Virus record (IMG/VR): IMGVR_UViG_2857089846_000001
Span: 60,154-124,153 of that record
DNA: 64,000 nucleotides
Origin: a virus
Lineage: Duplodnaviria; Caudoviricetes
Strand: one strand, 5' to 3'
In this document: positions 15,865-43,827 of the stretch, piece by piece
Position numbering within the stretch: position 1 is the first letter of the stretch
Layout: each line of letters starts with the position of its first letter
Notes under the pieces: model-generated
The model's input: the letters and a program-made list of their open reading frames with translations, nothing else
Told to the model about the DNA's origin: nothing
The model's database searches: none
Position numbers and translations under genes: made by a program

Positions 15865-15892
15865 ATAGAAGATGAGTGCGTGTACTAACGTC
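15865..15892 (-). promoter_or_regulatory. Putative capsid promoter GACGTTAG-N14-TTCTAT
   Basis: Upstream box matches well; -10 deviates. Confidence 0.4.
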
Positions 15893-15934
15893 TCGGGCTC
15901 CCGGGCACGGAAGTGCGTGATCCCGAGAGCCCGA
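15893..15934. terminator. Imperfect stem-loop after the protease gene
   Basis: TCGGGCTC.CGGG...CCCG.GAGCCCGA. Confidence 0.4.
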
Positions 15935-15946
15935 CGTTTGTGCAGG

Positions 15947-17887: not shown

Positions 17888-17924
17888 GGCGGTTTCCTCC
17901 TGGCGGGCTTCTCGGGCGTTGCGC

Positions 17925-17952
17925 ACCGTGCCCCCGCCGGGGGGTTAGCGTC
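17925..17952 (-). promoter_or_regulatory. Putative virion-gene promoter GACGCTAA-N14-CACGGT
   Basis: Shared architecture, upstream of the protease gene. Confidence 0.55.
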
Positions 17953-31900: not shown

Positions 31901-34900
31901 CATGTCCGTCGCAGAAGGCTGCGGCGTCGGGCGGCCGGCCGGTGAACTCCGCTCCGGCCGGGAACCCGCCGCCGGCTGCTGCTGCGAGTCTTCGCCCGCG
32001 GCGCGCGGGGATGCCTCCCGCGGGCGGTCCGCGGGAGCCTGGCGGCCCGAAGCGGGGGCTTCGTCTCGAGACCCCGTGCCCTGAGTGGGCGCCGGTGTGG
32101 GCGCAGACTCGGCGGGCTGTTCCTCGGTCTCGGGGGCCTTGGTGGTCGGCTCGCTGGTCTCGGACGTCGTCGTGGTGCCCGTCTCGCCCGGACTGCCGGC
32201 GCTCTCGTCGCTCGTCCCTTCCTCGGCGAGCCCGTTCAGTTCGGAGCGCACCTTGGCCGGGTCAAGGGTGACGGTGCCCTCGCCGGTCTCCGGCCCCCGC
32301 GGAGAAGCGGCCTCCCCTTCGCGCTGCTCCGCGGTGGTGCTGTCCGCGGGCTGCGAGCGGGCGCGCCGAGCCCGCTCGGTGGTGAGCCGGGCGTGCCTGT
32401 CGACAGCCGCGTCATCGGCCGTGCCCTGGTTGATGGCCTCCTCGATGCTGCTCAGCTCGCTGTCGAGTTCACTCTCGGACAGCGACGACGGGCGCGGCCG
32501 GCCGTCCTCCCGGACCGCGGCCTGCTGCGGTGCCGGCTGCTGAGCGGTCTCGGCGCGCTTCGGCTTCTCGGGGGCGGGCTTGAAGGTGCGGGCGCGCTCC
32601 TGGTCGGCGAGGGCCTTCAGGACTCGGGTCTCCTCCTCGACTTCCTTCAGCCGCTTCCTCAAGCCAGGGTCGGCCTTCTCGCCGGCCTCATGGATTCGCT
32701 CGCGGAGCTTCTTCGCCTCCTGGTGGTGCATGACCATCTCGGTGAGGGCCTGGACGCGCCGCTCGGTGGAAGCGACCTGCTCCTCGAAGGGACTCTGCCC
32801 CTCCTCCAGGTGCGACTCCGCTTCCCGCTTCGTGACGCGGGCTTGGTCGAGTTCCTTCTGCCGCTTCTCGATGTCGGCGTCGAGGGACTTGAGCAGGTTC
32901 TCCAGGGACTGGATCGCGCCGCGGCCCGACGTGTCGTTGATCTTGCGGGCCGACCAGAGGCCGCGGGTGTCCGGGGTGGCGGCGTTCGTGTACGACGGGG
33001 CGTGGTCCAGGCGCAGCCGGACCATGCGGTTGCCGTCGGCGTCGTACTCGACCTCGGCGAGGAAGTTCACGCCGCCGATCTCGCCGAGCGGGACGGTGGC
33101 GCCGTCGCGGTGCCGGGTGTCCTTGGCGATGTCAGCCATGCGCTGGCCGAGATCCTGCGCGGCGTCCGCGCGGCTGTCGTAGGAGACGCCGCCGATCGTC
33201 GCCTGGAAGTTGTCGCCGCTCACGTCCTGGCGCTGGGCCAGGGCCTCCCGCATCTCGGGCAGGGCCCGCTCCAGAGACTCGATACGGCCGTCGAGGCGGG
33301 CGATGCGGTCGCGGCGCTCCTGCTGCTGCTCGTACCAGTCGGCGTTCTGCCGCTGGAGGTCCACCAGCTCGCCCTGCGCGAGGGCACGCTCGGCGATGGC
33401 GGGGTTGCCGGAGGCGATGGCCTTGAAGGTGCCCATCGACACCGCGTCGTCGCCGATGTCCTCCATCTCGCGGGCATTGAAGTCGCGGCGCGCCATCTGG
33501 TTGATGAAGACCGCCTTGCGCTCCAGCGTGCCCAGGCGGAACTCATCGAAGGTGCCCTCGGTGATGTAGTACATGATCCGCACGTCGTCGGGCGTGCCGT
33601 CGACCCCGGGGACGTTGAGGTTGCCCTGCCGCTCGACACGGCCGTCGCGCTGCGCCATGTCGGCGGGCCGCCACGGGAACGACAGGTGGTGCAGGGCAAC
33701 GGCACGGTCCTGCACGTTGGTGCCGGTGCCCATCTTCTGCGTCGAGCCGATGAGGACGGCGATCTTGCCGTTGCGGGCCTCCTCGAACAGCTTGGCCTTG
33801 GCCTTGTCGTCCTTCGCCTCGTGGATGAAGCGGACCTTCTCCCGGGGCACACCGGCAGCGACCAGCTCGTCCCGCATGGCCTCATAGGCGTCGAACTTGA
33901 TCTTGCCGGTGGAGCCGGGGGTGCCCTCGTCAAGGAAGACGAGCTGGAGGCTGCCAGGCAGCTCCTGCGGCGTTGCGTCCTTCGTGGACACCGGGTAGAC
34001 GGTGTCCTTGTGCTCCTCGTAGATCCTGGCGATCTGCTCGGCGGCGGCCTCCAGCTTGCCGCCCTCGTGGCCGGAGCCGCCCTGTAGGCGCATGTCGATC
34101 GCGGCTCGGGAGGCGAAGCCGATGGCCTTGAGGATGCCGCCCGGCTCCCTGATCCAGTCCTCGTCCTGCAGCGATTGCACGTACCGGCGCTGCTCTACCG
34201 ACGAGGGGATGGCGATGACCTCGCCGCGGCGGCCGTTCTCGCCGGCGCGGACCGGCGGAGTGGGCAGGTTCAGGTCGGCGGCGGTCTGGATGTCGGCGAA
34301 GGTGCGGTACCCCAGCAGCAGCTCGGGGACGTTGAAGAACCTCGCGAACCGTGCCTTCTCCCGGTAGTCGCCGCTTCCGTCGGCGGCCAGCTCCAGGCTG
34401 GTGACGACCTCGCCGAACGTCGCCGCCCAGGAGTCGAAGTCGTCAATCCCCGCCTCTTCGAGGATGTGCGGGGCCAGGTAGCGCATGAGGACGTACGCCT
34501 CGGTGACGCTGTTGGCGATCGGCGTGCCGGTGGCCAGCGACGCGACCCGGCCGGAGGCGTTGTGCTCTCGCAGGTAGCCCAGCGCCATGTGGAGCTGTGT
34601 GGCCTGGCTGGAGCCGCTGATGGCGGCGCCGGGCAGGTTCGAGACGGTCCGCAGGTTCTTGTACTCGTGCGCCTCGTCCACGAACAGGTAGTCGATGCCC
34701 GTGTTCTCGAAGAAGATCCCGCGCTCGTCCTTCAGCGTCTCCAGGCGCTCCTTGAGCTTCTCCTCCTGGTTGGCGAGGGTCTGCTCCATCTGCTTGAGCG
34801 AGGGGTCGTCGCCGTCCCGGGCCTTGATCTTCTCGATCTGGGAGCGCAGGAGCGCGAGCTCCTTGTCCATGTACGCCTGCTGGGTCTTGGGCGTCATGGG

Positions 34901-37900
34901 GATGGAGTTGAAGGCGTCGTGCGTGAGGACGACCACGTCCCAGTCGCCGCCTGCGATCTTCGCGATGAACTTGCGGCGCTTCTTGTGGTGCAGGTCCTTC
35001 CGGGAGATCGCGAGAACCTTCGCGCCCGGGTAGAGCTGGACGGCCTCGCGGGAGAACTGCTCCAGCATGTGGTTGGGCACCACGATCGCCGGCTTGGACG
35101 CCAGGCCGGTGCGGCGCAGCTCCATGGCGCCGCCGACCATCGTGGCGGTCTTGCCGGCGCCCACGACGTGGCCGAGGAGGGTGGTGGGCTCTTGCGTGAT
35201 GCGTCGGATGGCCGCGTTCTGGTGCGGCCGCATCTGCCAGCCGGTCTTCACCCCGGGCAGGGTCAGCGGCGTCTCGTCGTAGTCGCGGAGGGCGATGGAG
35301 TTGAACTTGTCGTTGTAGATGCGGCCCAGGCGCTCAGCGCGCTGCTGGTCGGCCATCACCCACTTGTTGAACTCCTTGGCCATCTCCTTGGCCTTGTTGC
35401 GGGCCGCAGAGGTCGCCTTCTGGTTGACGTACGTCTTGGTGGAGCCGTCGGGGAGCTTCTGGCTCTCGGTGATGGTGATGAGCTTCTGGTGCAGCAGCGA
35501 GTCGAACAGCTCGTAGGCGTTGCGGCCCTTGACGCCCCACACGGTCCGGGCGATCTCGCCCTTGTCGCTGCCGTCCACGGCCCACCGGTTGCCGCCGAAG
35601 TGGGTCACGCTGGCGTCGGACAGGCCGAGGTGGCGCAGGAAGCCTTCGTAGACGTCGATCGGCACCCACGGTGCGCCGATCTTCACGCGGATGTCGGCGG
35701 CGCGGATGTCGCGGGGCACGACCCGCTCCAGGGCGGCGACGTTGACCGCGTACTTGGGGTCCTCGGCGGCCGCAGCGCGGGCCTCGGCGAGTTTCTGCCG
35801 TACGTTGCCCGACAGGTAGGCCGCTCGGGACTCCAGCCGGCCGGTGGCCGGGTCATCGAAGGCGAGGTCTGCGAGGGCTTCGCGGGCCGCGTCCTGGTCC
35901 ATGCCGAGCAGCCGGGCGACGGTCGGCAGCTCCAGGCGGCCGCCGTCCTGCTCCAGCGCGATTGCGACGGCGTCTTCGGGGGTGTCAGCGCGGTCGGGGA
36001 TCTCCCGGGGCTGGAGAACGCGCTCGGTGAGGATGTTCAGCTTGCGGGGGGCCTTGGCGTCCGCGTCCCACCGGTCGAGGCCGAACACCATGTGCCCGTC
36101 CGGGTCCTCTTCGAACAGCGCCAGGGCCGTGGGGAGCTTCCACTCGTCCGGTACCTCCTTGAGGCCTTCGGCCTTGCGGCGCGCCAGGGCCTCCGGGGGC
36201 GAGAACTGGCGGCGCTGGCCCGGCTTGTTCGGGGAGGGGTGCTTGCGTACGTAGGCGTCGTAGGCGCGGTTCAGAGCCGCGCGTGCCTCGCGCATCTCGT
36301 TGGTCTCGCCGGTCTGCCGGGTGGAGGCTTCCAGCTCGATGAGCCGGTTGGAGAGCCCTTTGAGTTCCAGCAGGCGGCCCAGCTGGGCGCGCTGTCCGGG
36401 GTGGACGTCGAGCTCGACCCAGTTGCCGTCCTCGACGGTCATGAACGAGTCGCCCTCGCCGCGGGCGATCGTGCCGTCGCGGGCGTCGCCGGCCAGGTTC
36501 AGTGAGAGGGCGGCGTTCTGCTGGGAGGCGTCGTAGCCCTTCCCGTCGGACTTGGCGTCGGCCGCGATCCGGCCGAGGGCGGCACGCAGGGACACGAGGG
36601 TGTTGCTGTCACCCCTGACGGTGAGGTCGTGGTCGGTGAACTGGCCCCGGCCGACCGCCAGCTGTCCGAGGATGTTCTTGGGGTTCTGCTGGAAGTAGTC
36701 GTTGACCGCGTGCTCGTGGCCGTCGATGTTCGTCTTGCTGGCCGTCAGCCAGGAGTCGTCGCCCCGGCCGTGCCTGTACTCCGACGGCTCACGGCGTCGG
36801 AACAGCAGCAGGTCGGTCACGACGTGGGTGCCGGCTGCTCGCTGGTGTGCGCCCTCGGGCAGACGCACCGCGCCCACCAGGTCGGCCATGTCGTACATGG
36901 CGCGGCGGGCCGAGTCGTCCTCGGAGTCCATGGTGTACCGGGAGGTGACCAGGGCGACGTATCCGCCCGGCCGGACCCGGGCGAGGGACTTGAGGATGAA
37001 GTGGTCGTGGATCGAGTGGTGCCGGCCGGGGTTGTCCAGGGGGTCGTGCAGCTTGTACTTGCCGAACGGCACGTTGCCGACGGCCAGGTCGAAGCTGTCG
37101 GGCGGCAGGCGCAGATCCTGGAAGGGCTGGTTGATGATCTGCGCGTCCGGATAGAGCAGCTGCGAGATCGCGGCCGAGGTCGGGTCGAGCTCGATGCCGA
37201 CCATCTCGGCGCCGTCGGGGGCGTGCCCGATGAAGTTGCCGGAGCCGGAACCCGGCTCCAGGACCCGGCCACGGCGGAATCCGAGGGAACGCAGCGCGTC
37301 CCACACCGGCTGGATGAGAGCGGCATCCGTGTAGTGGGCGTTGAGGGTGTTCTTGCGGGCTGCGGCCCATTCCTTGTCGTCCAGCAGCGCGCGGACCTCG
37401 GCGCGCTCCTCCGCGAAGGACTCCCACCGCTTCAGGGCACGGGCGTAAGCCTCGGGGTTCGGCTGCCCGTCCTCGTCGCGGAACCGCTTGTCTTGCGGGT
37501 TGGGCTTGTCGGAGAGGACGACGGGCAGCGCACCCCAGCCCGACCAGCGGGCGAGGATCTGCTGCTCCTCCTCGGTCGCCGGCCGGTTCTCCGCCTGGAT
37601 GCGGCGCAGCGTCTGGACGGCGGCGACGTTCGCCTTCGCCTTCCCCCGCTCGCCGGACGGTGCGAGGTCCTCCTGAGATCCCGGCCGGAACCGGGGGGCG
37701 TCTACGTCTGCGGCAGCGTCTCGCCCAGCTCCAGGTGCTCCGTCCCGGGCTCCTTCGGCAGGAACACTTCCTCGTTCAGCACGATCTCCGTCGCCTGATT
37801 GCGCGCCTGCATCCGCGACGCCATCACGTCCTGCGTCGTCTCCTGCGGCAGATCGCGAAGCAGCTGCTCGGCGAGATCGCCGATTCGGACGAGCACCCGG

Positions 37901-40900
37901 TTCCCGAGCGTCTCGAAGAACGCCGTCTGCTCCGCCTCGCTGCCCAGGGACTTCAGGGCTGCCGGACGGTACGTCTCCCAGTGCCTCCGGGCCTGCCTGC
38001 CGTACTTGTTCACTGCGATCTGCTCCTGTGTCGGCCGGCTGCTGGCTCGGCTGGTCGCGGGTGGGCTTGTCATCAGGCTTGCGCTCTGCGAGGCGCGCTT
38101 CGGCGCCCATGAGATTGTTGCGGGCCTCGGCGAGCTCGTTGAGCCAGTACCGCTTGGAACTCTCGTCCAGGCCGTCCTGGCGGCCGCGGATGGCCTGCTC
38201 GACCTCGGCCAGGATCTCACCGAGGTCGGCGGCGCTGTCGGCTTCGCCGTCGCGGACGGCGTCGATGAGGGCTCGGGCCCGCTCGATCTGGCCGCTGGAT
38301 GTCTCGTCGTCCTGGAGGGTGCCGCGCTGCGCGAGGATCATTTGGTCGAGGACGATGTCCAGCTCGGCGGCGGCGATGTTGCGCTGCTGCGACCGCGGCC
38401 GGTCCTCGCCGCTGGTGCTGCTGGCGCTGTCCGGGGAGGGCGTGCCCTCCGCTTCGGCACGCTCCTGGTCTGCGTCGATGGCCTCGCGGATGACGTTGCG
38501 CGCGTTGCCGATCCGCTCTCGCAGGTAGTTGCGCTCACTGGCCGGGAGCTTCCGCTGGCGCGCGGTCTCCCGGTCCAGCTCTTCGAGGGCGGAGTCGAAC
38601 TGCTTCAGCCGGTGCTGAATCTCGTCGTCGTCGGCGACCTCAGCTGCGGAGAGCATGCGGACGAGCGGCCCTCCACGTGGCGCGTCGTCCATGCTCTGGG
38701 CGGCGCCGGCCCAGGTGAACGCCTCGTTCATGGCGGCCCGGGCCGCGTCCATCCGGCTCTGCGGCTTCTCCGTCCTCTCCTCATCGCCGGTGTCGGCGGC
38801 GGCTGTCTGGGGCGAGTCCGCAGCGTCCGGCTGGGCAGCCTGCTCGGGGGCCGCGGACGCGGCCTGACGTTCGGCTTCCTCCTGGTCGCGGCGGCGGTTG
38901 TACTGGACGGCGGCGAGGCCGTCGTTCGCGCCGCGCTCGCTGTCGAACCGGCCCGCGAGGTGCCAGATCGCCTTCCCGGACCGCTGGCCGTCCTTGTCGC
39001 GGAACTCGCTGAGCTCGGTGTTCAGCCGGGGGCCGCCCCAGTCGACGGTCCGGCCGTCTTCATGGCGCAGGTTGCTGGCCAGGAACAGGGTGAACCGGTC
39101 GGCGGTGTCGCGGTCTGCGAATTTTCCGTAGGAGTGGATGCCGCGGGTGCCGAGCCCAGACAGGGAGCGGCCGGTGCCGGAGGCCCGCACCTCGAAGCGG
39201 AACTCGTCGTCGCGGTTGGTGCGCTCGATGATGGCGAACCCGCGGTGGTCGGCCAGGTGGAGCTTGATGGTGGGGTCGCTGGCGAGCCTCCGCATGACGT
39301 CGCGCTGCGATTCGGGGACGTCGTCGCTGCCGCCGCGCTTCCAGAACTCGCGCAGCTCCTCGTTGTTCTGCGGCCGGCCCCGCTCGTCCCCGAACGTCGA
39401 TGCGCCGACGTGCCCGACGGCGATGCTCGAGGCGGGGGCGCCGGACTGTTCGGCGATCTGCTGGGCTGCGCGGGCCTGCGGGGTGTCCAGCTGCTCCGGG
39501 GTGGCTGGGGCGGGCTGAGTGCGGGAGGTCGCGCTCTCCCGCTTCTTCGCCGCTCGGTCGGCAAAGGCCTGCCGGGACTCGCCGGAGAGACGGCGGGCCA
39601 GGTCCATGCCCTGAGAGGTGTTGAAGACGTCGAACGCGTTCGGGTCGTCCCAGTCGATCAGCTTGCCGTCGAGTTCCGCGGTCTCCATCCGGTTGGCGAA
39701 GTCCAGCGCTTCGGCCTTGCGCGAGGTGGTGACCATGCGCATGCCGGTGTCGTTGTGGATGACGGCCCAGCCGTACGGGCCGTCCGTGGGCTTCTTGGCG
39801 GGGAGCTTGCCGATGGTGAAGTGCCCGTTGCGGGAGAGCTGCGGCTTGTCGAGCTGGTCCATCAGCTCGGGCATGGCCGCGTTGTGCTTCTGCTGCGCAT
39901 CCTCGCTCTTGCTGAACGGCCGCAGCTGGCCACCGGCCCAGTGGGCGCGTACGTCGTCCAGGGTCTTGAAGCGCCGGTTGGGGTCCCGGCGGCGCTGCGG
40001 CTTGGCTGCCACAGCCTTCTTGGCGGGCTTGATGGCCTGCGGCTCCCACGCATTGCCGTGGGTGCGGTTCGCGCGCGGGCGAGGGATGGGCTTGTTGCCG
40101 TGGGCCTCGAAGCGGGTGTGTGCCAGCTCAAGGGCGTCGGCCAGCGTGGCGGCGGCCTCGGCGATGTCGTCCTTCCCGGCTTCCTCAGCGCGCCGGGCAA
40201 GATCGTCGGCCGATTCCGCGAGGAACGGCAGGTCGTCGATCTCGGCCGGGTTCACCTGGTCGTTCGGGTCCGCGTTGACCTGGATCGCGGAGGACAGTTC
40301 GCGGCTCAGATCCTCGTATGCGGAGCGGGCGTCATCGTCGTCCCAGTCGTCATCCCACGCCTGGTCGAGCGGCTGCATGTAGTCGCTGACGAGCTCTTCG
40401 GTGGCCGCTTGGGCATGGTCGCTGTCGGTGAACCGCCGGCGGCGCTCGTCACCCTTCGCCTTGGGCCCAGGGGCGCGGAGCGCGCTTCCCTGGCCGTGAC
40501 GGTGCCGAGCCCTGCTGCGCCCCAGGCCTCCGGAGATGGGCAGTGCGTCGAACCTGGCCGTCTGGGGGTTCTCCTCGTCGGCCTGGCCGTCCTGGAAGAC
40601 ACGGCCGCGAGGAAGTACAGGGTCATCGTCCTCGGGCTCGGGCCCTTCGCCGAGGTCTACGCCCTCGACGTCCTCCCCGATGTCCTCGCCCTCGTCGTCC
40701 TTGTCGTGCGGGTCGTCGGGGGTGTCGCCCTGGTCGCCCTCGTCGTCATCGTCAGCGCGGCCCGTGCCGCGCCGCGGGTCGGCGGTACGGCGCTCGTCCT
40801 CGTCGCGGACCTTCTTCTTGCTCTTGGTCGGCTTGCTGCCGTCGGGGCGGGCGACCATCGTCAGCCGGGAGGCGTGGACGGTGGACCTCTCGCGGGTGGC

Positions 40901-41101
40901 CACGTTCTCTACGAGGACGTTCCGGCCGCCGAGGGCACGCACGACGCGCGCCATGCCGCCGCCCCACAAACGCGCGATGCCGCCGGTCTCAATGAATCGG
41001 CCCTTGGAGTCCCGGGGGTGCAGATCAGGGTTCCAGGGGCGGCGGGTCCGCTTCGCTTCGAGGCGGGCGGCGATACGGTCAGCGGCGTTCGTGATCTGCA
41101 T
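19952..41101 (-). CDS. Giant polyvalent protein (~7049 aa): DarB-like N6-adenine MTase + SNF2 helicase, UvrD-like SF1 helicase, repeated domains
   Basis: Uninterrupted 21-kb ORF. MTase: VLEPGSGSGNF, GNVPF (~37.3-37.0 kb). SNF2: VGAGKT, VDEAH, ATGTP, QRDGRVERQGN (~35.2-33.6 kb). SF1: AGTGKS, DEAQD, GDSNQAIYGFRGA, TQSFRFG, TAHKAKGLE, YVAVTRA (~31.5-29.8 kb). Start could be 41101-41119. Confidence 0.9.
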   Translation of the reverse strand: MQITNAADRIAARLEAKRTRRPWNPDLHPRDSKGRFIETGGIARLWGGGMARVVRALGGRNVLVENVATRERSTVHASRLTMVARPDGSKPTKSKKKVRDEDERRTADPRRGTGRADDDDEGDQGDTPDDPHDKDDEGEDIGEDVEGVDLGEGPEPEDDDPVLPRGRVFQDGQADEENPQTARFDALPISGGLGRSRARHRHGQGSALRAPGPKAKGDERRRRFTDSDHAQAATEELVSDYMQPLDQAWDDDWDDDDARSAYEDLSRELSSAIQVNADPNDQVNPAEIDDLPFLAESADDLARRAEEAGKDDIAEAAATLADALELAHTRFEAHGNKPIPRPRANRTHGNAWEPQAIKPAKKAVAAKPQRRRDPNRRFKTLDDVRAHWAGGQLRPFSKSEDAQQKHNAAMPELMDQLDKPQLSRNGHFTIGKLPAKKPTDGPYGWAVIHNDTGMRMVTTSRKAEALDFANRMETAELDGKLIDWDDPNAFDVFNTSQGMDLARRLSGESRQAFADRAAKKRESATSRTQPAPATPEQLDTPQARAAQQIAEQSGAPASSIAVGHVGASTFGDERGRPQNNEELREFWKRGGSDDVPESQRDVMRRLASDPTIKLHLADHRGFAIIERTNRDDEFRFEVRASGTGRSLSGLGTRGIHSYGKFADRDTADRFTLFLASNLRHEDGRTVDWGGPRLNTELSEFRDKDGQRSGKAIWHLAGRFDSERGANDGLAAVQYNRRRDQEEAERQAASAAPEQAAQPDAADSPQTAAADTGDEERTEKPQSRMDAARAAMNEAFTWAGAAQSMDDAPRGGPLVRMLSAAEVADDDEIQHRLKQFDSALEELDRETARQRKLPASERNYLRERIGNARNVIREAIDADQERAEAEGTPSPDSASSTSGEDRPRSQQRNIAAAELDIVLDQMILAQRGTLQDDETSSGQIERARALIDAVRDGEADSAADLGEILAEVEQAIRGRQDGLDESSKRYWLNELAEARNNLMGAEARLAERKPDDKPTRDQPSQQPADTGADRSEQVRQAGPEALGDVPSGSPEVPGQRGGADGVLRDAREPGARPNRRSRRAAASRSAAGDDAGRDGVADAGAQSGDGDRAERGSVPAEGARDGAPGAGRDAAADVDAPRFRPGSQEDLAPSGERGKAKANVAAVQTLRRIQAENRPATEEEQQILARWSGWGALPVVLSDKPNPQDKRFRDEDGQPNPEAYARALKRWESFAEERAEVRALLDDKEWAAARKNTLNAHYTDAALIQPVWDALRSLGFRRGRVLEPGSGSGNFIGHAPDGAEMVGIELDPTSAAISQLLYPDAQIINQPFQDLRLPPDSFDLAVGNVPFGKYKLHDPLDNPGRHHSIHDHFILKSLARVRPGGYVALVTSRYTMDSEDDSARRAMYDMADLVGAVRLPEGAHQRAAGTHVVTDLLLFRRREPSEYRHGRGDDSWLTASKTNIDGHEHAVNDYFQQNPKNILGQLAVGRGQFTDHDLTVRGDSNTLVSLRAALGRIAADAKSDGKGYDASQQNAALSLNLAGDARDGTIARGEGDSFMTVEDGNWVELDVHPGQRAQLGRLLELKGLSNRLIELEASTRQTGETNEMREARAALNRAYDAYVRKHPSPNKPGQRRQFSPPEALARRKAEGLKEVPDEWKLPTALALFEEDPDGHMVFGLDRWDADAKAPRKLNILTERVLQPREIPDRADTPEDAVAIALEQDGGRLELPTVARLLGMDQDAAREALADLAFDDPATGRLESRAAYLSGNVRQKLAEARAAAAEDPKYAVNVAALERVVPRDIRAADIRVKIGAPWVPIDVYEGFLRHLGLSDASVTHFGGNRWAVDGSDKGEIARTVWGVKGRNAYELFDSLLHQKLITITESQKLPDGSTKTYVNQKATSAARNKAKEMAKEFNKWVMADQQRAERLGRIYNDKFNSIALRDYDETPLTLPGVKTGWQMRPHQNAAIRRITQEPTTLLGHVVGAGKTATMVGGAMELRRTGLASKPAIVVPNHMLEQFSREAVQLYPGAKVLAISRKDLHHKKRRKFIAKIAGGDWDVVVLTHDAFNSIPMTPKTQQAYMDKELALLRSQIEKIKARDGDDPSLKQMEQTLANQEEKLKERLETLKDERGIFFENTGIDYLFVDEAHEYKNLRTVSNLPGAAISGSSQATQLHMALGYLREHNASGRVASLATGTPIANSVTEAYVLMRYLAPHILEEAGIDDFDSWAATFGEVVTSLELAADGSGDYREKARFARFFNVPELLLGYRTFADIQTAADLNLPTPPVRAGENGRRGEVIAIPSSVEQRRYVQSLQDEDWIREPGGILKAIGFASRAAIDMRLQGGSGHEGGKLEAAAEQIARIYEEHKDTVYPVSTKDATPQELPGSLQLVFLDEGTPGSTGKIKFDAYEAMRDELVAAGVPREKVRFIHEAKDDKAKAKLFEEARNGKIAVLIGSTQKMGTGTNVQDRAVALHHLSFPWRPADMAQRDGRVERQGNLNVPGVDGTPDDVRIMYYITEGTFDEFRLGTLERKAVFINQMARRDFNAREMEDIGDDAVSMGTFKAIASGNPAIAERALAQGELVDLQRQNADWYEQQQERRDRIARLDGRIESLERALPEMREALAQRQDVSGDNFQATIGGVSYDSRADAAQDLGQRMADIAKDTRHRDGATVPLGEIGGVNFLAEVEYDADGNRMVRLRLDHAPSYTNAATPDTRGLWSARKINDTSGRGAIQSLENLLKSLDADIEKRQKELDQARVTKREAESHLEEGQSPFEEQVASTERRVQALTEMVMHHQEAKKLRERIHEAGEKADPGLRKRLKEVEEETRVLKALADQERARTFKPAPEKPKRAETAQQPAPQQAAVREDGRPRPSSLSESELDSELSSIEEAINQGTADDAAVDRHARLTTERARRARSQPADSTTAEQREGEAASPRGPETGEGTVTLDPAKVRSELNGLAEEGTSDESAGSPGETGTTTTSETSEPTTKAPETEEQPAESAPTPAPTQGTGSRDEAPASGRQAPADRPREASPRAAGEDSQQQPAAGSRPERSSPAGRPTPQPSATDMDDEQLADAIGDLEEELSGFADSTDRLDLARRRRMEQRLFELQEEERRRWTPEPEYDDNGKLVERSRGSVVRDRLEGYGLNNAEVEDLVTRVEDLPAAKPGGYSDEEWERIDAAAAANESYPPTDEQDIIIQGAARRGLNMAVMALAGTGKSSTLKMLSHRMPGKKIVYLAFNRSVAAEAREAQARGEYAKNMLASTANAYAARVADRRLNDRLPSNKKGGFKKLNAQQIADRMRWYDTVRAGGRELSPGGAATVAERMLQQWAKSADAEMGPQHVNAKTEEERRDLFNAVKPLADRMWANLTDPEAGDPERDLTMDFDYIVKQWALGGYKLDADTLFWDEAQDVNPVMEGVVRAALDQGVQVVAVGDSNQAIYGFRGASDALTRLPVDARATLTQSFRFGPAVADVGNRFLRLLGTRMRLRGYDRKDSHLGQLQPGEESMVIARTNAGVALAAVQSLAAGRTVAVSGGVKALQEFVLAARALAAGENTDHAELARFNGMAYDDILEEVKTDPDLQQLASLFSLLEKHGDDIDLLLSSGARPAETELVGDRVWVRMDWNDPEAAGLREWFRSHRTNGVGRITYDANTKRFYYQAGKRTESFTKNGRTINYQVDNKLSLEEAKERIDAHLARVYPQTETEEGRGRLVPEHEKHDVLVTTAHKAKGLESERVRIADDFTGPEETDDGNIDWDTIPDDEALRVAYVAVTRATEVLDPGSLGWVFRAVRDDDPTQPPKGEYRRDFELGDFQPGDEIDFQEEDGTPNIGVVSEIDPPVLSVLSTSDEPGVGGKRQEIGPAQVQRRNGQGRPLLDVASDEELDAVLGEDTARAARESQPNADSAAAPQSEEPTGSPAVPAPAADIITGDQVPPGPGATPYELEKYRRRFNIRYKVGYYVDYRNDDGETVTARVVKTTGNPILRDDAGHEFRADPDWYADRFIAVRADDGSPLPRPTWADTLPEGFRAVSPEEIQPGHAIREGSWADLLWGKRFVMATGTGEDGSTRLYTAHLATIGGVNLGYDPRQLVVLDETEESRQLAEEALRRRDVRKSAKFQGLTLPKKLPAPSDETNAPDAPTPAPKPDNAPDADTSSWGEGDQVLTPQHGAGAIRHIADNGFALVDTDSGMRPIALAELRRPGQDASAAELDRKAEAGAKRERENAWLAAAATSEGAPIESMDGYRLANLDVDAGHGAIMRDGEMVAWIRARGPKGASTWKAQDARGGGPRTPAAAISEGTGENGLYRSIKGAAWSAAYQADSNVDPSHGRGVTRPEDMRGEILGTLLTKAQFRELGDLAKRWANGDDADLRHVANNYYSGPVSANQMRYAADAIDQEADALDLSTADGRRREKLYRRLAQGVRWQARGLEASATMPPPGEPDPFSRRGDAPAPDAAQAADTEVGNGPEEIREKVGEHNGKPVEVGEVQTIPAESRFQRDEVRRSVYLDGERIGSLLHSDAEWTGGDAWRADHDLYGSVGDQWYRQGDFDNPGHAAALALAGEHGKPLLSFPGDRSGRAEPIREWAGVWAEPQPAGVRNVYLDRALAHNGDGWTATADPWQVRFWISTMADVEPSAQYDENTRRSLEEVPQEARQYLAGLVEELRSSVQKAGEELRADLRPLLVDRIATRNGRKKALELRNQLAEERTQKVRELVREQVARARVGAEEHGLSEQQAEDFLVSVVGGDNPDQTTYGIRGEFPEALRPLQAAVADARAYWAAFAGWATQDDSGNWAGMHWENGRRESLGAPMIPAADARSGTGELRIGEAELPRGMRWVRGSELGEGHIFHTVSSARRGTADVFDGMEPPHYVIHTHRNGREGEIRSVSLDSDRGSHTVGAEEWVVLVEKPEPAVRKRAQHRARTDVFTNWGLPKDHETYELGGPDRVAALVARADVAEVANDGSKKEWSVSVDGVDVGRIAHDWGKSPTDYHAESADGQRRTWSDKDLATAGLVAAYDAASRDEQEGNRRDDENDENDGQDGQDDADAERRRRNRRRRRDRDRNRPESGGDTPGGARPVIPRVPGRNRDDDDDDGRDSSGNQDEPRRLEALKNRYRSGEAPVPSGADPERHAQYLRGLASNDSLTLSPGGGLVTWTNTGDTWRFGHAASGLHLEGWEVSGDAIGGREGARRLAGAYEGLRDADGELIDWTSPVLDPERMRAWSDADGMPLAGAVARARQNMIDLRSDESREASGPDAPAAPGRTTESGDAAPRRPGDDSRGRAGTAAVGGAQGTTQGEGQQGADTAAPGATAEPSQYVGNAVHGPQHAGSVDGRRIPTAEELKRYESRGSDRVINEEGERALFGSPEQMRALAEEGFVPGPLMRSDRSGQVWRNGRLIGNLNAPHRYRNDHTDGDPEVWWSELPFGSSGPHFATREAAIAHLVLRDKERGEPDLSIVHPDLARDLSSMDDGRALDGRRGLESLENRPEDMERLQALRDLLAALGRGETPSGNVADDLARLHDELRWLNTHYKQPPTSLKEANIHGPGWLADEIRKHLDVLRPEDPRAQHHEARLNRAAHQALNDLLADGARDRADRVPAGDIREGDIVHLSGRISGRSSGATASRTGYVIGEPQKATLTTDGKRQRAWRITVGGDPWEATRHAIDTETFVIPVDGSGLVLARAEDVNMPFDDHRYGRREGEAPRDTAPARSGNGADREPAGTPAAPGSAADRDQSGDRAEEAQPTSAGGAADNAPSSEGDSSNAPSDQDDRQEADPSAGKRTQGGRPKGEEPASEGDTTPADSAAPEPVGGRPAEWVKVSDLTLGDLVRVDGTTKRGTARTLAGYVVDGPKSIPTTQARRLQDMYRVLIADAPDSRDGKPVWVRPDAAAARATRDDADQFQGSPQTGADSDVLTGRIADRVPTDRNANGLFPGAIVTNDDGREGVVTGASANSVRVQFGDDRTDDDHAPTSLNVTDGGAARPDGWTTGGHRVRPGNIVSDRDGNMLGTVEDVDGDTATVAAPQGMAELPIGDLRVVGDTSNGDGQAPPKVARVESVTAGELKEGDLLVPRNGRPRRITSIRHTGTRTTLDTQDPIAGDIGSLSVPSDAPMRRAVDAEGGAPDFGPEDEPESPEPIVPHEPAPAVAPVNGPTVNPDLSPEERDAITDRGQVPTDDPEAQQAAARIANDLPVTAGQASALAGALREGADASTSEGRAARRAADHLDAAAGNESDGGTGRPEPGTIGAVGVGDTLMLPDEFDPDTMTAYRVVQIQEAPGGMRTLMIEDEDGLRFKRTFASGESLYQLPEPSSDATAAQDDDGDTPATSDPAAPAVPVARVQAGQLRVGDVIDAPLSGAGYRLNDHRRLTVVAPPHRNGWWMSVTVMDGDGNMHDLSLHSGRQVNVFERNRPTPALPPADGNQDASRPSAADRIRADYGDAVVRGVIDNAIQGTTTPGSIHQLREQIAAQLTPESLRSAMSRVRNEARDVIDGADLDDTERDELVSSLRPEAASARQDAVRAVLRTVNDLEPRDGESEEELAARAADLLRLIPEALRNRPDNDRDGDSIDGDSRVDRAVLRHVDDAVGEALADAVRGGELTEERRAAIVAQLAARLAATREETARRIASQVPEGRRPGVFAHALALLVAIARKLLSLLMALLKWLARVVAKAWRAGRNGTRSLRERLARFRRNLMERIKSWPETRRLRRLAAAADLPEHGDGLPLGDRVAHWARLLPAPGRFGQVSRRSRWYRPASRTSLAAGQLPAVRDGVRWAPDRAVDGGPGPQALRHLAAVRAAGQDVDTDVAARLAAAAPELGDDPHGNVRHASGYADAAERRLRDLEAAAAGGATDTDLEIAAARVEAQSARQEATRLQQAYTAALPDAVRDTLAELREMGPGTTATLVTTPDSDRDSVRALTDISQFVPRDWLTPADSRFIGARGGDTGGYDPDSRIATVADLGDGGRRTAAHALLAHLQQHYPDLLAAQEAFHFTRTHSGRVGARRRTSVDVLMARLFRNRTEQGDTGDVVPLGLGTLFSGDWYEDDDLRAFLLGLLATR
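37702..38013 (-). CDS. TnpV-like small protein nested in an alternative frame of the giant gene
   Basis: GTG after CAGGAG; MNKYGRQARRHWETYRPAAL...AFFETLG...MQARNQATEIVLNEEVF, 103 aa with globular composition. Confidence 0.7.
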   Translation of the reverse strand: MNKYGRQARRHWETYRPAALKSLGSEAEQTAFFETLGNRVLVRIGDLAEQLLRDLPQETTQDVMASRMQARNQATEIVLNEEVFLPKEPGTEHLELGETLPQT

Positions 41102-41108
41102 GCGGCGG

Positions 41109-41136
41109 ACCATGCACACCCGAGGTGGTTAACGTC
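41109..41136 (-). promoter_or_regulatory. Putative leaderless promoter GACGTTAA-N14-CATGGT-CCGCCGC-ATG
   Basis: Shared architecture, upstream of the giant gene. Confidence 0.6.
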
Positions 41137-41164: not shown

Positions 41165-41410
41165 CTACATCGACTCGGTCAAGATGTGCAGAAGGAACCA
41201 CACGGCACCACCCGCCACAGCGACCGTGAATATGGCCCGGCCGGCTTTCGAGCGGCGGATGCGGAACAGCCCGCGGGTGTTCTCGCTCAGGGTGTCGCCG
41301 TCCTTTCTGTTGAGCAGTGCGATCGTCTCGTAGACGACGAAGAACGCGACCCACGCAGTCCAGAGGATTGGGCTGATGTGGGTGCGGAGGAATCTGGCGG
41401 CGCGTCTCAC
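41165..41410 (-). CDS. Small 2-TM membrane protein
   Basis: 81 aa, two hydrophobic helices around GDTLSE; overlaps the portal stop. Confidence 0.7.
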   Translation of the reverse strand: MRRAARFLRTHISPILWTAWVAFFVVYETIALLNRKDGDTLSENTRGLFRIRRSKAGRAIFTVAVAGGAVWFLLHILTESM

Positions 41411-43827
41411 GGGGTCTCCTCAGCGGTGCGGTAGCGCAGTCGGCATCGGCAGTTGATGGTCAGGTGGAGCGGGGCGAGCTGGTCGCCCGGGTAGCGCATG
41501 GGGTATCCGTCGACGTCGTACGGCTGAGTGACGGGCAGGGTGGTGCCGTCCACTGCGGCGTGGGAGGCCCGTACACGGTCGTCTCGGCGCGTGACCCAGG
41601 TGCGGATGATGTCCGGCCCGATCGCCGCGGCGGTGACGTTGGCGGCGCCGTTGACGGTGGCGACGGCGGTGGTCTCCGCGATGGCCGCGGCGGTGTGGCG
41701 TCCCATGTCGGTGAACGCGGTCCGGACGAGCGCCACCAGGTCGTTGATGTCGCTGGTCACGCTCTGGCCCTGCTCAAGCAGGGTCATGAGGCTGTCGAGG
41801 AACCGGCGGGCCGCGTCCTCGCCTGCGTACACCGCGTCCAGGATGGCGGCCGTGAGCGGGGTGTGCGCGGGCGGCTCGGGGGCGCCGAGGGCTGCCGCGG
41901 TGTGCTGCGCGGTCGTGTGGGCGATGCCGGCGAGGACGTGGGCGAGGTCGCCGGCGAGCTCGTCCAGCCATCGGTCCGTGCCCACGATGCGCTCGATGTC
42001 CAGCGGCGCGTCGCCGCCGCGGGTGTCGGTGGGCCCGTCGTCCTTCCAGTACCGCGTGCCCTTGCGGGCCTTCGGCGACCGCAGGCGCGCGATGATGACG
42101 CCTTGCTGCCGGTCGAACAGGGGGGCGAGGACTGCGGCCGCAGCCTGCTGCGCCTGGTCGAAGTCGTCGTCGGTGACCTCGAATGAGGATGTGGCACTGT
42201 CGCCGGTCAGGGCCTTGACCTGAAGGCCGCGGGCTTCGCTGACGGCGGCCGCGGCCTCGCCCGGTATCCGCTGCTCGCTCTGGTGTGCAGCTTCGACGGC
42301 AGCTGAGGCTGCACCCGGTTGTGCGGGAGCCGCGTCGGCGCGGGCCTGCGCGACGACCGATTGGGCGGCGCCTGGCCCAGTCGGCTGGTCGGCGTCGGCG
42401 CGGGCCTGAGCGACGGCCGCCGCAGCATCACCGGTAGCAGTGCCGTCCGCCGGTGGAATCGGAGCGTTGGGGTCGGCTCCGGGCTGTCCCGGCGGGAGCT
42501 GCCCGGCGGCGCCGTCGGGTGCGGCGATGCCGAGGGCTGCGGCGTCTTCCGGCCGGGCGGGAACGGGTGCCTTCTGTGGGGAGATCCACAGGGCGCGGCT
42601 GTGCGGGTTGTCGTACGCGGGCAGGCCTGCGCGGCGCCGGTACTCGTCAATGCTGATCAGCCCGGCGTCCCACTCCTCACGGGCCTCGGCGCGGCGCCGG
42701 CGGCGCGGCAATTCCAGTACCTCGACGGCGGAGGTGTCGAAGCGGATCTTCGCTTGCGGGTTGCCGAGGTCGCCGGCGAATGCGCTGGCGATCGTGGCGA
42801 GGTGGTCCAACTCTGTGTGGTTCCAGAAGTTGAACTCTTCCTGCTCGGCGTTGTCGAAGGTGCGGCCGCTGGCGTTGCCGAGGACGCTCTCGGGCACGCC
42901 GAACGCGGCGAGAATCTCGATCTTCGCGTTCTGCGCGGCATGCTCGTACGCCATCTCGCGCGGCTTGGCGGCCAGGTCCACATAGTTCATGCCGCCCGGG
43001 CCTGCGCCCACGACTGAGACGTGCCCGGCGTACTCGGAGCCGGGCAGGAACCGGGCCTCCAGTCGGTCCATCTCGGCGGGGCTGAGGGTGGAGGTGTCGA
43101 CGGCGACGATGCCGCCTGGCCTCGCGTCGTTCTTGATGAAGGCGGTGTTGTACAGGCGGGACAGGTGGTCCAGCTCCACGCTGATCCCCGCGGCCTCCAG
43201 TGGGGTGACACCGGAGAAGGGATCGGTCGGGTGCGGATCGCGAATCCACCGGACACGCTCGGGGTCGAGCTCTCTCACCTCCCCGAAGAGGGTGGTGAAC
43301 TCGTAGTGCGCGATGTACTCGCCGCGCGGGTCGGGGACGGGGATAACCCGGTCCGGCGGCAGTAGGTCGAGCCGGGTGATGGTGCCGCGATTCGAGCGCG
43401 TGACCTCAACGAACGCACCGCGCTTGGAGAGCAGGATCTGCGCGGAAAGGCGCTTGCGGAACTGGGAGCCGGTCTCAACCGGGTTGGCCTTGCCGTTGAG
43501 GACGCGGAGGAGGGGATGGTCCTCGATGACCTCTTCGAACTCTCCGTCTTCGGTCAGTCCGACACCGATCTGCAGGGGCAGGCGTGCGGCGTGCTTGCCG
43601 ATGGTGTCGATGGCCTTGTAGACCCAGACGACGCGTTCGTACCCCTCGGTGACGACGCGGCCGACGTCCCAGCCGTCCGCGCGGCCTTCGGTGGACCAGA
43701 TGTTCGCGGTGCCCGCGTAGGTGGTGGAGGTGTATCCGCCACTCCAGGTGATCGTCTTCGCTTCGGTGTCGTGGCGCCCGGACGTGATCAGCGTGCGGAG
43801 CGCGGGGAGCCATCGGCGCTTGGCCAT
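41407..43827 (-). CDS. Portal protein fused to a MuF-like minor head domain
   Basis: Portal: WVYKAIDTI, LDLLPPDRV, FSGVTPLEAA, FIKNDARPGG, ILAAFGVP. Ala/Pro linker, then MuF TWVTRRDDRVRASH...INCRC. Confidence 0.92.
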   Translation of the reverse strand: MAKRRWLPALRTLITSGRHDTEAKTITWSGGYTSTTYAGTANIWSTEGRADGWDVGRVVTEGYERVVWVYKAIDTIGKHAARLPLQIGVGLTEDGEFEEVIEDHPLLRVLNGKANPVETGSQFRKRLSAQILLSKRGAFVEVTRSNRGTITRLDLLPPDRVIPVPDPRGEYIAHYEFTTLFGEVRELDPERVRWIRDPHPTDPFSGVTPLEAAGISVELDHLSRLYNTAFIKNDARPGGIVAVDTSTLSPAEMDRLEARFLPGSEYAGHVSVVGAGPGGMNYVDLAAKPREMAYEHAAQNAKIEILAAFGVPESVLGNASGRTFDNAEQEEFNFWNHTELDHLATIASAFAGDLGNPQAKIRFDTSAVEVLELPRRRRRAEAREEWDAGLISIDEYRRRAGLPAYDNPHSRALWISPQKAPVPARPEDAAALGIAAPDGAAGQLPPGQPGADPNAPIPPADGTATGDAAAAVAQARADADQPTGPGAAQSVVAQARADAAPAQPGAASAAVEAAHQSEQRIPGEAAAAVSEARGLQVKALTGDSATSSFEVTDDDFDQAQQAAAAVLAPLFDRQQGVIIARLRSPKARKGTRYWKDDGPTDTRGGDAPLDIERIVGTDRWLDELAGDLAHVLAGIAHTTAQHTAAALGAPEPPAHTPLTAAILDAVYAGEDAARRFLDSLMTLLEQGQSVTSDINDLVALVRTAFTDMGRHTAAAIAETTAVATVNGAANVTAAAIGPDIIRTWVTRRDDRVRASHAAVDGTTLPVTQPYDVDGYPMRYPGDQLAPLHLTINCRCRLRYRTAEETP

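What the first reader, a model, noticed from the sequence alone, without database searches (positions are those of the whole stretch)
37702..38013. Complete TnpV-like gene nested in another frame inside the giant ORF
Seen: same strand, different frame, own RBS (CAGGAG) and GTG, 103 aa of helical globular sequence ending right where the MTase region begins. Over the same bases the giant frame reads as an R/G/A/D-rich linker (EQVRQAGPEALGDVPSG...). Known from recall: TnpV-like proteins start YG.....[WY]....P, end A.E.V..E, and often lie beside MTase-SNF2 genes. Inference: the giant gene grew by reading through its upstream partner gene, leaving a dual-coding 312-bp segment that standard annotation would miss.
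Basis: partly seen in the sequence, partly recalled or inferred. Interest (0 to 1): 0.8.

Follow-up and report, generated by a model that had tools for sequence, protein, structure and literature searches.

The report
Small gene hidden inside giant gene
A real, conserved 103-residue TnpV-like protein gene sits in a shifted reading frame inside a 7055-residue phage anti-restriction gene, and the same gene-within-a-gene layout recurs in plasmids and prophages across actinomycetes, where standard annotation misses it.

Summary
On the minus strand, 38013..37702 is a GTG-started, AGGAG-preceded 103-aa ORF in the +1 frame of a 7055-aa ORF (41119..19952). That ORF is a DarB-like methylase/SNF2/UvrD gene between the portal and protease/capsid genes of a prophage.

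Third-position GC switches from the giant frame to the nested frame only over this stretch. AlphaFold2 folds the nested product at pLDDT 92.5. The giant-frame reading of the same bases scores about 30.

Outside the window I examined 63 homologous ORFs.
- **No giant-frame stop:** 54 of 63, nearly always with the methylase N-terminal motif starting right after the nested stop.
- **With stops:** 9 of 63, none followed by a start-less methylase.

At codon junctions where a T would create a giant-frame stop, nested genes have 0 T of 743 and non-nested homologues 24 of 331. dN/dS is lower in the nested frame in 20 of 21 pairs.

Relatives without the long N-terminal extension still start the methylase ORF 52-85 nt upstream of the small gene, so the nesting predates the giant's growth.

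The Pfam TnpV match stays below threshold. Translation of both frames and the small protein's function are inferred, not shown. I found no published description.

The parts
37702..38013 (-). Nested TnpV-like gene: GTG start, 103 codons, TAG stop; +1 frame relative to the giant ORF
   Evidence: sequence. (third-position GC 0.88-0.95 in this frame). (AF2 pLDDT 92.5, pTM 0.80, four helices). (homologues). (dN/dS lower in this frame).
38023..38027 (-). Shine-Dalgarno-like AGGAG, 9 nt upstream of the nested GTG, itself encoded within giant-frame codons
   Evidence: An SD-like motif 7-15 nt upstream of the chosen start occurs in 40 of 44 homologous loci; the 4 misses have an alternative start 6-9 nt away.
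19952..41119 (-). Giant ORF (7055 aa): N-terminal extension, linker, methylase, SNF2-type helicase, UvrD-type helicase and a long C-terminal region; a DarB-like polyvalent anti-restriction protein. The 41119 start is the ORF finder's and is not verified.
   Evidence: Pfam methylase, ResIII/SNF2, Helicase_C, UvrD. PHROG 10089 'DarB-like antirestriction', E 8e-107.
37700..38083 (-). Giant-frame linker (about residues 1013-1140), predicted disordered; codons 1036-1140 overlap the nested gene
   Evidence: pLDDT about 30 and no secondary structure at model residues 38-165, against 67-72 in the helix before the linker and 86-96 in the first 100 residues after it, from the same 17-row alignment; third-position GC 0.35-0.55 in this frame; giant-frame dN/dS mostly above 1.
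36293..37699 (-). Conserved N-terminal domain plus methylase core of the giant protein (RFRP..DLAPSG..RWSGWG..LEPGSGSGNFIG..NVPFG), starting right after the nested stop
   Evidence: 25-row alignment, 47% mean column identity, invariant motifs.. Iyer et al. 2017 describe an N-terminal LPD36 domain before DarB-type methylases (passage read); identity with LPD36 was not tested.
41407..43827 (-). Portal protein with a C-terminal MuF-like part, directly upstream of the giant gene (context)
   Evidence: Phage_portal E 6e-48; Phage_Mu_F E 8e-7.
14469..17926 (-). Head maturation protease (15947..17926) and major head protein (14469..15866), downstream of the giant gene (context: head-morphogenesis module)

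Best explanation
This is a true same-strand, out-of-frame nested gene pair. The giant DarB-like methylase-helicase gene is read in frame 0 straight through the segment. There it encodes only a disordered R/G/A/D-rich tether joining its N-terminal part to the methylase module. The only requirement on that tether's sequence is that it contains no stop codon. Inside the tether, ribosomes start independently at the AGGAG-GTG at 38013 and make a 103-aa four-helix TnpV-like protein in the +1 frame, ending at the TAG just before the methylase domain begins. The small gene carries the codon adaptation and the purifying selection; the giant frame rides over it. The layout is ancestral to a large group of actinomycete plasmid, integrated-element and prophage genes. 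In this prophage lineage, a long N-terminal extension was added upstream of an already nested pair. Shown: conservation of both frames. Inferred: translation of both frames. I further infer, with lower confidence, that the small protein is a dedicated partner of the methylase-helicase protein, such as a chaperone, adaptor or regulator. The basis is that the two genes are almost never apart in the genomes searched.
For: (1) Coding signature. Third-position GC switches giant frame -> nested frame -> giant frame in the window and in every long-extension relative examined.
(2) The nested product is a real protein family. There are homologues in 16 plasmid records, 25 of 401 genomes of the same family, 14 of 401 of the class and 5 IMG/VR contigs. 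A profile search finds 1257 50%-identity clusters at E<=1e-3, and the best 150 are all 88-345 aa. AF2 gives pLDDT 92.5 from 26 sequences.
(3) The giant frame is kept open.
- 54 of 63 homologous ORFs outside the window have no stop in the -1 (giant) frame, and all 54 have at least one stop in the other frame.
- T at the third position before AA/AG/GA-starting codons is 0 of 743 in 29 nested ORFs, against 95 of 2180 at other junctions. In 8 non-nested homologues it is 24 of 331, against 37 of 1043 at other junctions.
- Per-gene chance of an open frame is 0.14-0.50 with the window's codon table. With each locus's own codon table it is mostly 0.1-0.8. The product of the largest values over clusters below 50% identity is about 1e-5. 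That product is my arithmetic, dropping clusters with tiny codon tables.
(4) There is no other way to make the methylase. Its conserved N-terminal motif starts within a few codons of the nested stop, with no in-frame start between them.
(5) Frame 0 is coding upstream of the overlap. In this window and the other long-extension loci, third-position GC is 0.8-0.99 in frame 0 upstream. In short-leader loci, an ATG/GTG with a strong SD is conserved 52-85 nt upstream of the small gene. A leader peptide (MA.RR...GQLS..LW, or ..QQPDLFS) is conserved at the amino-acid level across Micrococcales and Mycobacteriales loci.
(6) Selection. dN/dS is lower in the nested frame than in the giant frame in 20 of 21 computable pairs, with one pair reversed.
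(7) The linker is disordered: pLDDT is about 30 exactly over the overlap, while flanks in the same alignment reach 67-96.
(8) Linkage. In the class sample, all 14 genomes with a TnpV-like hit have the methylase immediately adjacent. Of the 17 genomes with the methylase, 14 have a TnpV-like ORF by HMM and 2 more by tblastn; the last is a fragment with a stop.
Against: There is no direct evidence of translation of either frame, and no RNA run was listed.
For the window alone, an open giant frame over 104 codons is expected by chance 30-50% of the time.
The lineages are related, so the cross-lineage probability is rough. Single-linkage clustering at 40% identity leaves only 3 clusters.
The nested and control groups were separated by ORF length and downstream context, which correlates with the feature counted.
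Some zero-stop loci are degraded (L009, L028, L040, L042), so an open frame persists there without an intact giant gene.
A 172-175-aa subfamily of homologues (7 loci) is not followed by the methylase, and one sampled DarB-like plasmid gene (L082) has no detectable TnpV-like ORF. The partnership is therefore not universal.
No fold match or family gives the small protein a function.
Confidence: 0.8

Rival explanations
1. The 7055-aa ORF is three genes run together by a chance lack of stops in GC-rich DNA: an N-terminal gene, tnpV and a methylase-helicase gene. The giant frame across tnpV would not be a functional coding stretch.
For: For one gene, the -1 frame is open by chance 30-50% of the time. 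PGAP annotates separate genes in several plasmids.
Against: The upstream frame-0 coding region has no stop, so ribosomes must run on. The methylase part has no start codon after the tnpV stop. The frame is open in 54 of 63 relatives, with 0 of 743 risky T's against 24 of 331 in non-nested homologues. The PGAP starts cut off conserved residues.
Confidence: 0.07
2. Programmed recoding links the frames. Either a -1 shift near the end of tnpV makes a TnpV-methylase fusion, or a +1 shift from the giant frame enters tnpV, so that TnpV is a domain of a larger protein rather than a separately started product.
For: The methylase frame is -1 relative to tnpV. The C-terminal KEPGTE(H/D) stretch of the small protein is conserved beyond the Pfam domain. 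Fusions by frameshifting are common in mobile elements (recalled).
Against: I saw no X_XXY_YYZ slippery heptamer in the tnpV frame near the junction, by eye. An SD plus start codon is conserved at the tnpV start in 40 of 44 loci. The giant frame is stop-free over the whole of tnpV, not only its 3' end, and is coding upstream of it. None of the best 150 family representatives is fused to a large protein.
Confidence: 0.06
3. Assembly error, or a recent pair of compensating indels, threw an originally in-frame domain of the giant protein out of frame in this genome.
For: A C6 homopolymer lies just after the nested stop.
Against: The same frame relationship holds in the 4 PGAP-annotated giant CDSs checked and in all 54 stop-free relatives, down to about 30% protein identity. 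The nested frame always has its own start and stop.
Confidence: 0.01
4. The nested gene is a relic of a TnpV-carrying mobile insertion into the SNF2-type gene, as occurs in Streptococcus suis elements. It would be tolerated because it kept the host frame open, with no functional tie to the giant protein.
For: In S. suis ICEs, TnpV-carrying IMEs and CIMEs integrate specifically into the snf2 gene (passages read in PMC9815147).
Against: No convincing flanking repeats: the best flanking pair is 14 nt at 79% complementarity. No recombinase is present in the segment. The position, exactly between the leader and the methylase domain, is the same in every lineage. The small gene is under purifying selection.
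Confidence: 0.05

Closest known systems
TnpV of Tn4451/Tn4453 (Pfam PF14198)
   Same: Small helical protein of mobile elements. The weak matches cover nearly the whole profile (positions 16-24 to 109-111 of 111) in many members. Relatives in the Kocuria and Sinomonas plasmids, in the same position upstream of the helicase-related gene, are annotated 'TnpV protein' in RefSeq.
   Different: Scores stay below Pfam's 27-bit cut-off: 15 bits here and 23 at best. The Pfam model found nothing in this genome at E<=0.01. Tn4451 TnpV was postulated to aid excision by likeness to lambda Xis (passage read in PMC3158075). Here there is no recombinase context, and the model is an all-helical fold with no significant structural match.
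Phage P1 DarB and the methylase-helicase 'polyvalent proteins' (Iyer et al. 2017, PMC5512222)
   Same: The host gene has the methylase fused to an SF2 helicase, with a conserved domain N-terminal to the methylase. It matches PHROG 'DarB-like antirestriction'. It lies beside the portal gene, as P1 darB does. The paper's passages predict capsid packaging for such proteins.
   Different: It is three times longer than DarB, with an extra UvrD-type helicase and a long N-terminal extension. P1 darB has no TnpV-like gene at its 5' end, and its neighbour ulx is unrelated to the nested protein (hhalign probability 0.1). The paper does not contain the words TnpV, overlapping or frameshift.
Classical out-of-frame nested genes: lambda Rz1 in Rz, Bacillus comS in srfAB, phiX174 B in A and E in D (recalled, not looked up)
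   Same: A small gene with its own ribosome-binding site lies wholly inside a larger same-strand gene in another frame. As with comS, the host is a very large multidomain gene.
   Different: Here the overlap is 270-600 nt and is conserved across several actinomycete orders and three element types. The constraint is asymmetric in the unusual direction: the small inner gene is the constrained one, and the big gene contributes only a disordered, stop-free tether.

Membership tests
TnpV (Pfam PF14198) | Profile score at or above the curated gathering cut-off (27 bits) | tested here: not met
   15 bits, E 0.025 for the window protein. 7 of 11 relatives match at E<0.1, best 1.6e-4. 4 of 10 family representatives match at E<=0.01, best 23.1 bits. 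Whole-genome search with the Pfam model: 0 of 21 genomes.
TnpV (Pfam PF14198) | Match spans most of the domain rather than a short motif | tested here: met
   Profile positions 24-109 of 111 for the window protein; 16-111 and 18-111 in relatives.
TnpV (Pfam PF14198) | Close homologues named TnpV by an independent curated pipeline | tested here: met
   The L084 and L086 small genes are annotated 'TnpV protein' and score 78-80 bits against the profile built from this family.
TnpV (Pfam PF14198) | Carried on a serine-recombinase transposon or IME, as in Tn4451 | tested here: not met
   Neighbours in the window are the portal gene, a small ORF and the giant gene itself. No recombinase appears in the loci inspected.
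DarB-like methylase-helicase polyvalent protein | N6-adenine-type methylase fused upstream of an SF2/SNF2 helicase in one polypeptide | tested here: met
   Pfam Methyltransf_11 at residues 1287-1347; ResIII/SNF2 at 1962-2233; Helicase_C at 2427-2499. PHROG 10089, E 8e-107.
DarB-like methylase-helicase polyvalent protein | LPD36 domain N-terminal to the methylase (Iyer et al. 2017) | not testable with these tools
   No LPD36 model is in the libraries at hand. A conserved domain does occupy that position.
DarB-like methylase-helicase polyvalent protein | Encoded in a phage packaging or conjugation context; packaged or transferred with the DNA | tested here: inconclusive
   The genomic context is met: the gene lies between portal-MuF and protease/major head protein. 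Packaging itself cannot be tested here.
Functional out-of-frame overlapping (nested) gene pair | Inner frame under purifying selection and encoding a foldable protein | tested here: met
   dN/dS 0.06-0.97, median about 0.3. AF2 pLDDT 92.5. 1257 clusters of homologues.
Functional out-of-frame overlapping (nested) gene pair | Outer frame maintained open beyond chance across lineages | tested here: met
   0 of 743 risky third-position T's, against 24 of 331 in non-nested homologues. Frame open in 54 of 63 relatives. Not significant for the window alone.
Functional out-of-frame overlapping (nested) gene pair | Both products actually translated | not testable with these tools
   No RNA run was listed. 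No proteomic or ribosome-profiling data were available.

The most novel reading that the evidence does not exclude
The TnpV-like gene and the DarB-like methylase-helicase gene form an obligate, anciently fixed dual-coding module across Actinomycetes plasmids, integrated elements and prophages. The nesting would be functional rather than incidental. Ribosome traffic on the giant ORF would set how much of the small protein is made, or the reverse. The small protein would be the dedicated chaperone or adaptor that keeps the giant anti-restriction protein inactive or transfer-competent until it is packaged into capsids or passed to a recipient cell. In that case the disordered tether doubles as a regulatory translation unit. 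Hundreds of annotated 'helicase-related' genes would then have wrong start codons and a missing partner gene.
Probability: 0.3. Interest if true: 0.85.

Novelty: new variant of a known kind. Interest (0 to 1): 0.78.

Why it matters
Conserved nested genes in different frames are rare outside tiny viral genomes, and gene callers systematically discard them.

Here one is fixed across several actinomycete orders. It occurs in conjugative and linear plasmids, phage-plasmids and prophages, always at the same spot in one of the largest classes of anti-restriction proteins.

- **Annotation:** in 4 of 4 records with a giant CDS, the small gene is not listed. In 'standalone' records, the methylase-helicase start is placed too far downstream, cutting off conserved residues.
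- **A model for overprinting:** it shows cleanly how a disordered linker can be laid over a pre-existing gene. One frame is constrained and the other is only kept free of stops.
- **A new partner:** it identifies a previously unlinked, almost invariably co-located small partner for DarB-type proteins, whose delivery and control are poorly understood.

Each frame can be knocked out without changing the other, so the system is directly testable.

Tried and rejected
**Searches that found nothing**
- tblastn of the nested protein against 50,697 phage records: no match.
- Word-indexed protein search with the single protein: none scored. The profile search later found 1257 clusters.
- Foldseek of the AF2 model against the PDB and BFVD: no match at E<=0.001. 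No function can be read from the fold.
- Pfam PF14198 searched in 21 related genomes and 14 control genomes: nothing anywhere, so the search is uninformative.
- Sigma-70 promoter and terminator scan of 37400-38600: 0 sites. This is uninformative for Streptomyces promoters.
- Pfam on the genes flanking the 173-aa non-nested subfamily (L025): no families.
- Literature: searches for 'TnpV' (38 papers, 25 listed; none on actinomycetes or overlap, judged from listings and abstracts), for DarB/Streptomyces/overlapping gene, for polyvalent proteins, and for phage-plasmid Streptomyces found no description of this nesting. Supplementary files were not seen.

**Ideas tested and rejected**
- P1 Ulx as a possible counterpart of the small protein: unrelated (hhalign probability 0.1). 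ulx also lies downstream of darB, not upstream.
- Repeats flanking the nested ORF, as a trace of a mobile insertion: only short GC-rich pairs, the best flanking pair being 14 nt at 79%.

**Tools unavailable or uninformative**
- RNA runs: no RNA holder listed.
It was repeated with A1.

**Limits of what was examined**
- Locus-specific codon tables of about 500 codons or fewer gave noisy chance estimates.
- Three of the 16 plasmid hits (H41-H43) were not examined.
- Of the 228 plasmid records with DNA similarity, I sampled six further genera.

Full report
**What is at the coordinates.**
All features are on the minus strand. A GTG at 38013 is preceded by AGGAG (38027-38023, 9-nt spacer) and opens a 103-codon frame ending at TAG 37704-37702. 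It lies in the +1 frame of a single 7055-codon ORF, 41119..19952. Over these bases the giant frame reads an R/G/A/D-rich string. The conserved motif RFRPGSQEDLAPSG...RWSGWG of the methylase module begins four codons after the nested stop.

**Context.**
The window lies near one end of a 7.29-Mb single-contig chromosome. The giant protein carries four recognised domains and matches PHROG 'DarB-like antirestriction' at E 8e-107:
- a methylase domain at residues about 1287-1347;
- ResIII/SNF2 at 1962-2233;
- Helicase_C at 2427-2499;
- a UvrD-type helicase from 3212.

The gene sits in a phage head module. In minus-strand order, that module reads:

| Coordinates | Feature |
|---|---|
| 41407..43827 | portal with MuF-like tail |
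| 41165..41410 | 81-aa ORF |
| 19952..41119 | giant gene |
| 15947..17926 | head protease |
| 14469..15866 | major head protein |
| 237..4295 | tape measure |

In Iyer et al. 2017 I read passages only. They describe such methylase-SF2 'polyvalent proteins', with P1 DarB as the archetype, and predict packaging into capsids.

**Which frame is coding.**
In this 70%-GC DNA, third-position GC is 0.85-0.97 in the giant frame on both sides of the segment. Between about 38040 and 37690 it drops to 0.35-0.55. The nested frame rises to 0.88-0.95 over the same stretch.
- AlphaFold2 with a 26-row alignment folds the nested product into four helices at mean pLDDT 92.5 and pTM 0.80.
- The giant-frame translation across the same bases was folded with a 17-row alignment. 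It has pLDDT about 30 and no secondary structure at model residues 38-165, which are giant residues about 1013-1140.
- In that same model, the helix before the linker scores 67-72 and the first 100 residues after it score 86-96.

**Relatives.**
tblastn found homologues of the small protein in 16 plasmid records.
- *Giant CDS annotated over the match (4 records).* These are three about-130-kb Streptomyces plasmids with the same portal / small ORF / giant gene order, and a 939-kb linear plasmid. The match lies in the +1 frame of the CDS in all 4, with its own SD, start and stop.
- *Small gene annotated as a separate 96-aa gene (6 records).* The methylase N-terminal motif nevertheless starts immediately after its TAG in the -1 frame, with no start codon in between. 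That frame is open through the whole small gene. A conserved ATG or GTG with a GGGGAG-type SD lies 52-55 nt upstream of the small gene's start.
- The annotated methylase-helicase starts in these records lie 36-243 nt downstream of the small gene's stop and remove conserved residues.

Further loci came from these sources:
- profile searches of 401 genomes of the same family (25 with a match);
- 401 genomes of the class (14 with a match);
- IMG/VR (5 loci);
- six further plasmids from other genera, picked from the DNA hits.

*Tally.* Outside the window I examined 63 TnpV-like ORFs (one duplicate pair noted). Of these, 54 have no stop in the giant (-1) frame, and all 54 have at least one stop in the other frame. 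The 9 with stops are:
- seven members of a 172-175-aa subfamily that is not followed by a methylase;
- L033, where the methylase has its own GTG/ATG overlapping the small gene's TGA;
- L045, in a locus whose methylase is broken.

Some zero-stop loci are themselves degraded (L009, L028, L040, L042).

**Is the open frame selected?**
For one gene it is not significant. Synonymous resampling gives P(open) of 0.30 for the window with the giant gene's codon table, and 0.50 with a 500-codon local table. Across lineages it is.
- A giant-frame stop can only arise where a T-ending codon precedes a codon starting AA, AG or GA. At such junctions the 29 nested ORFs have 0 T of 743, against 95 of 2180 elsewhere.
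- The 8 non-nested homologues have 24 of 331, against 37 of 1043 elsewhere.
- I took the largest P(open) in each cluster below 50% identity and dropped clusters with tiny codon tables. The product is about 1e-5, in the range 5e-6 to 6e-5. This is my arithmetic.
- That figure treats clusters as independent, which is only approximately true. At 40% identity, single linkage leaves 3 clusters.
- The nested and control groups were split by ORF length and downstream context, which is not fully independent of the feature counted.

**Selection by frame.**
I made 22 close pairwise comparisons.
- Nei-Gojobori dN/dS in the nested frame is 0.06-0.97, median about 0.3.
- In the giant frame it is 0.48-2.3, mostly above 1.
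- The nested frame has the lower value in 20 of 21 computable pairs.
- Amino-acid identity is higher in the nested frame in 21 of 22 pairs.

**Evidence that frame 0 is read from upstream.**
- In long-extension loci, including the window, frame-0 third-position GC is 0.8-0.99 in the 300 nt before the small gene (0.89-0.92 in the IMG/VR loci). There is no stop.
- In short-leader loci from other orders, the 20-30 codons of frame 0 before the overlap encode a leader conserved at the amino-acid level despite synonymous differences.
  - One form is MA(R/G).RR...(E/D)GQLS(L/F/I)...(W/F), found in one class-sample family (six loci) and in the Kocuria and Sinomonas plasmids.
  - The other is M...QQPDLFS, found in a Mycobacterium plasmid and its relatives, where a second conserved frame-0 block follows the overlap.
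  - In all of these loci the leader is preceded by an SD-like sequence.
- In the Mycobacterium-type group the small gene is 194-200 codons long. The giant frame is still stop-free in 3 of 3 distinct loci at 65-69% GC.

**Independent start of the small gene.**
An SD-like motif lies 7-15 nt upstream of the chosen start in 40 of 44 loci. The four misses have an alternative start 6-9 nt away.

**Linkage.**
In the class sample the 14 genomes with a TnpV-like hit all have the methylase hit immediately adjacent. Of the 17 genomes with the methylase:
- 14 have the small gene by HMM;
- 2 more have it by tblastn with a divergent query;
- the last is a fragment with an internal stop.

One of the six extra plasmids (Rhodococcus opacus, L082) has no detectable TnpV-like ORF.

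**Family assignment.**
Pfam TnpV (PF14198) matches the window protein at 15 bits, against a cut-off of 27.
- 7 of 11 relatives match at E<0.1.
- 4 of 10 family representatives match at E<=0.01, with a best score of 23.1 bits.
- The matches span almost the whole profile.

Homologues in Kocuria and Sinomonas are annotated 'TnpV protein'. I therefore call it TnpV-like: a remote relative, not a demonstrated member. The profile search finds 1257 clusters at E<=1e-3 and 789 at E<=1e-10. The best 150 are all 88-345 aa, with none fused to a giant protein. The published notion of TnpV function is a postulated Xis-like role in Tn4451 excision (passage in PMC3158075). It does not fit the context here, and the fold has no significant match.

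**Interpretation.**
The simplest account is a nested gene pair. The giant gene is read through, yielding a disordered tether whose only constraint is freedom from stops. The small gene is started independently inside it.

Short-leader forms in conjugative and linear plasmids already show the nesting. The about-1030-aa N-terminal extension of this prophage's protein was therefore added upstream of an existing nested pair. It may serve capsid targeting, which is an inference from its position beside the portal-MuF gene. L033 shows what an un-nested state looks like, but I did not root a tree, so the order of events is not established.

The rivals are discussed in their own section: chance concatenation, programmed frameshifting, assembly error and a relic mobile insertion. 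Each conflicts with at least one result above. Together I give them about 0.2.

**What remains open.**
- Translation of either frame.
- The start of the giant ORF.
- Whether the small protein binds the giant one.
- What the small protein does.

I found no description of this arrangement in four literature searches or in the passages read.

Noticed in passing
L006:3525, L007:3318, L008:3357, L010:3384, L084:2369, L081:2417: Annotated start codons of the methylase-helicase genes in plasmid records lie downstream of conserved N-terminal residues. In L006 the start removes the FRP...RWSGWG block. The cause is that the likely true start lies upstream of the small gene.
   Followed up: yes
L047-L053 (about 76-82 nt upstream of the small gene), L084:1772, L086:1775, L075:598, L076:676, L077:409, L083: The frame-0 leader peptide before the overlap is conserved across orders (..GQLS(L/F/I)..LW/F, or ..QQPDLFS, with a second Q.SLFDE block after the overlap in the Mycobacterium-type loci). 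From memory it resembles the bacterial beta-clamp-binding motif QL[SD]LF. Not tested. The window's own protein has no such motif next to the linker.
   Followed up: partly
window 37702-37704 and the junctions listed: The small gene ends with TAG in the window and in 25 of 28 nested ORFs (1 TAA, 2 TGA). This puts a GTA valine codon in the giant frame at the junction. I have no explanation for the preference.
   Followed up: no
window 15947-17926 (-): The head maturation protease ORF also matches phage 'RNA ligase' PHROGs over residues about 210-372 (E 4e-16 and 4e-14). This is an unusual combination.
   Followed up: no
window 41407-43827 (-): The portal protein carries a C-terminal MuF-like region (Pfam Phage_Mu_F, residues 700-797) in one ORF, directly upstream of the giant gene.
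   Followed up: no
L024:885-1214 and L024:1504-1776: One genome of the same genus has two tandem TnpV-like ORFs. Only the second is enclosed by the long methylase ORF. The first has an open -1 frame of only 558 nt.
   Followed up: partly
L025-L027, L030-L032, L035: A 172-175-aa subfamily has the TnpV-like domain plus a conserved C-terminal extension. It is not followed by a methylase and has 1-5 stops in the -1 frame. Its neighbours gave no Pfam match.
   Followed up: partly
window 61137-63161 (+) and 52249-53595 (+): An FtsK/SpoIIIE-like ORF and a phage-type transcriptional regulator lie beyond the head module. They may mark the edge of the element or a neighbouring conjugative function.
   Followed up: no
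window 41119-40990 (-): The giant protein's N-terminus contains NPDLHPRDSKGRF. From memory, HPR..GRF-like strings recur in actinophage head-associated proteins. Not checked.
   Followed up: no
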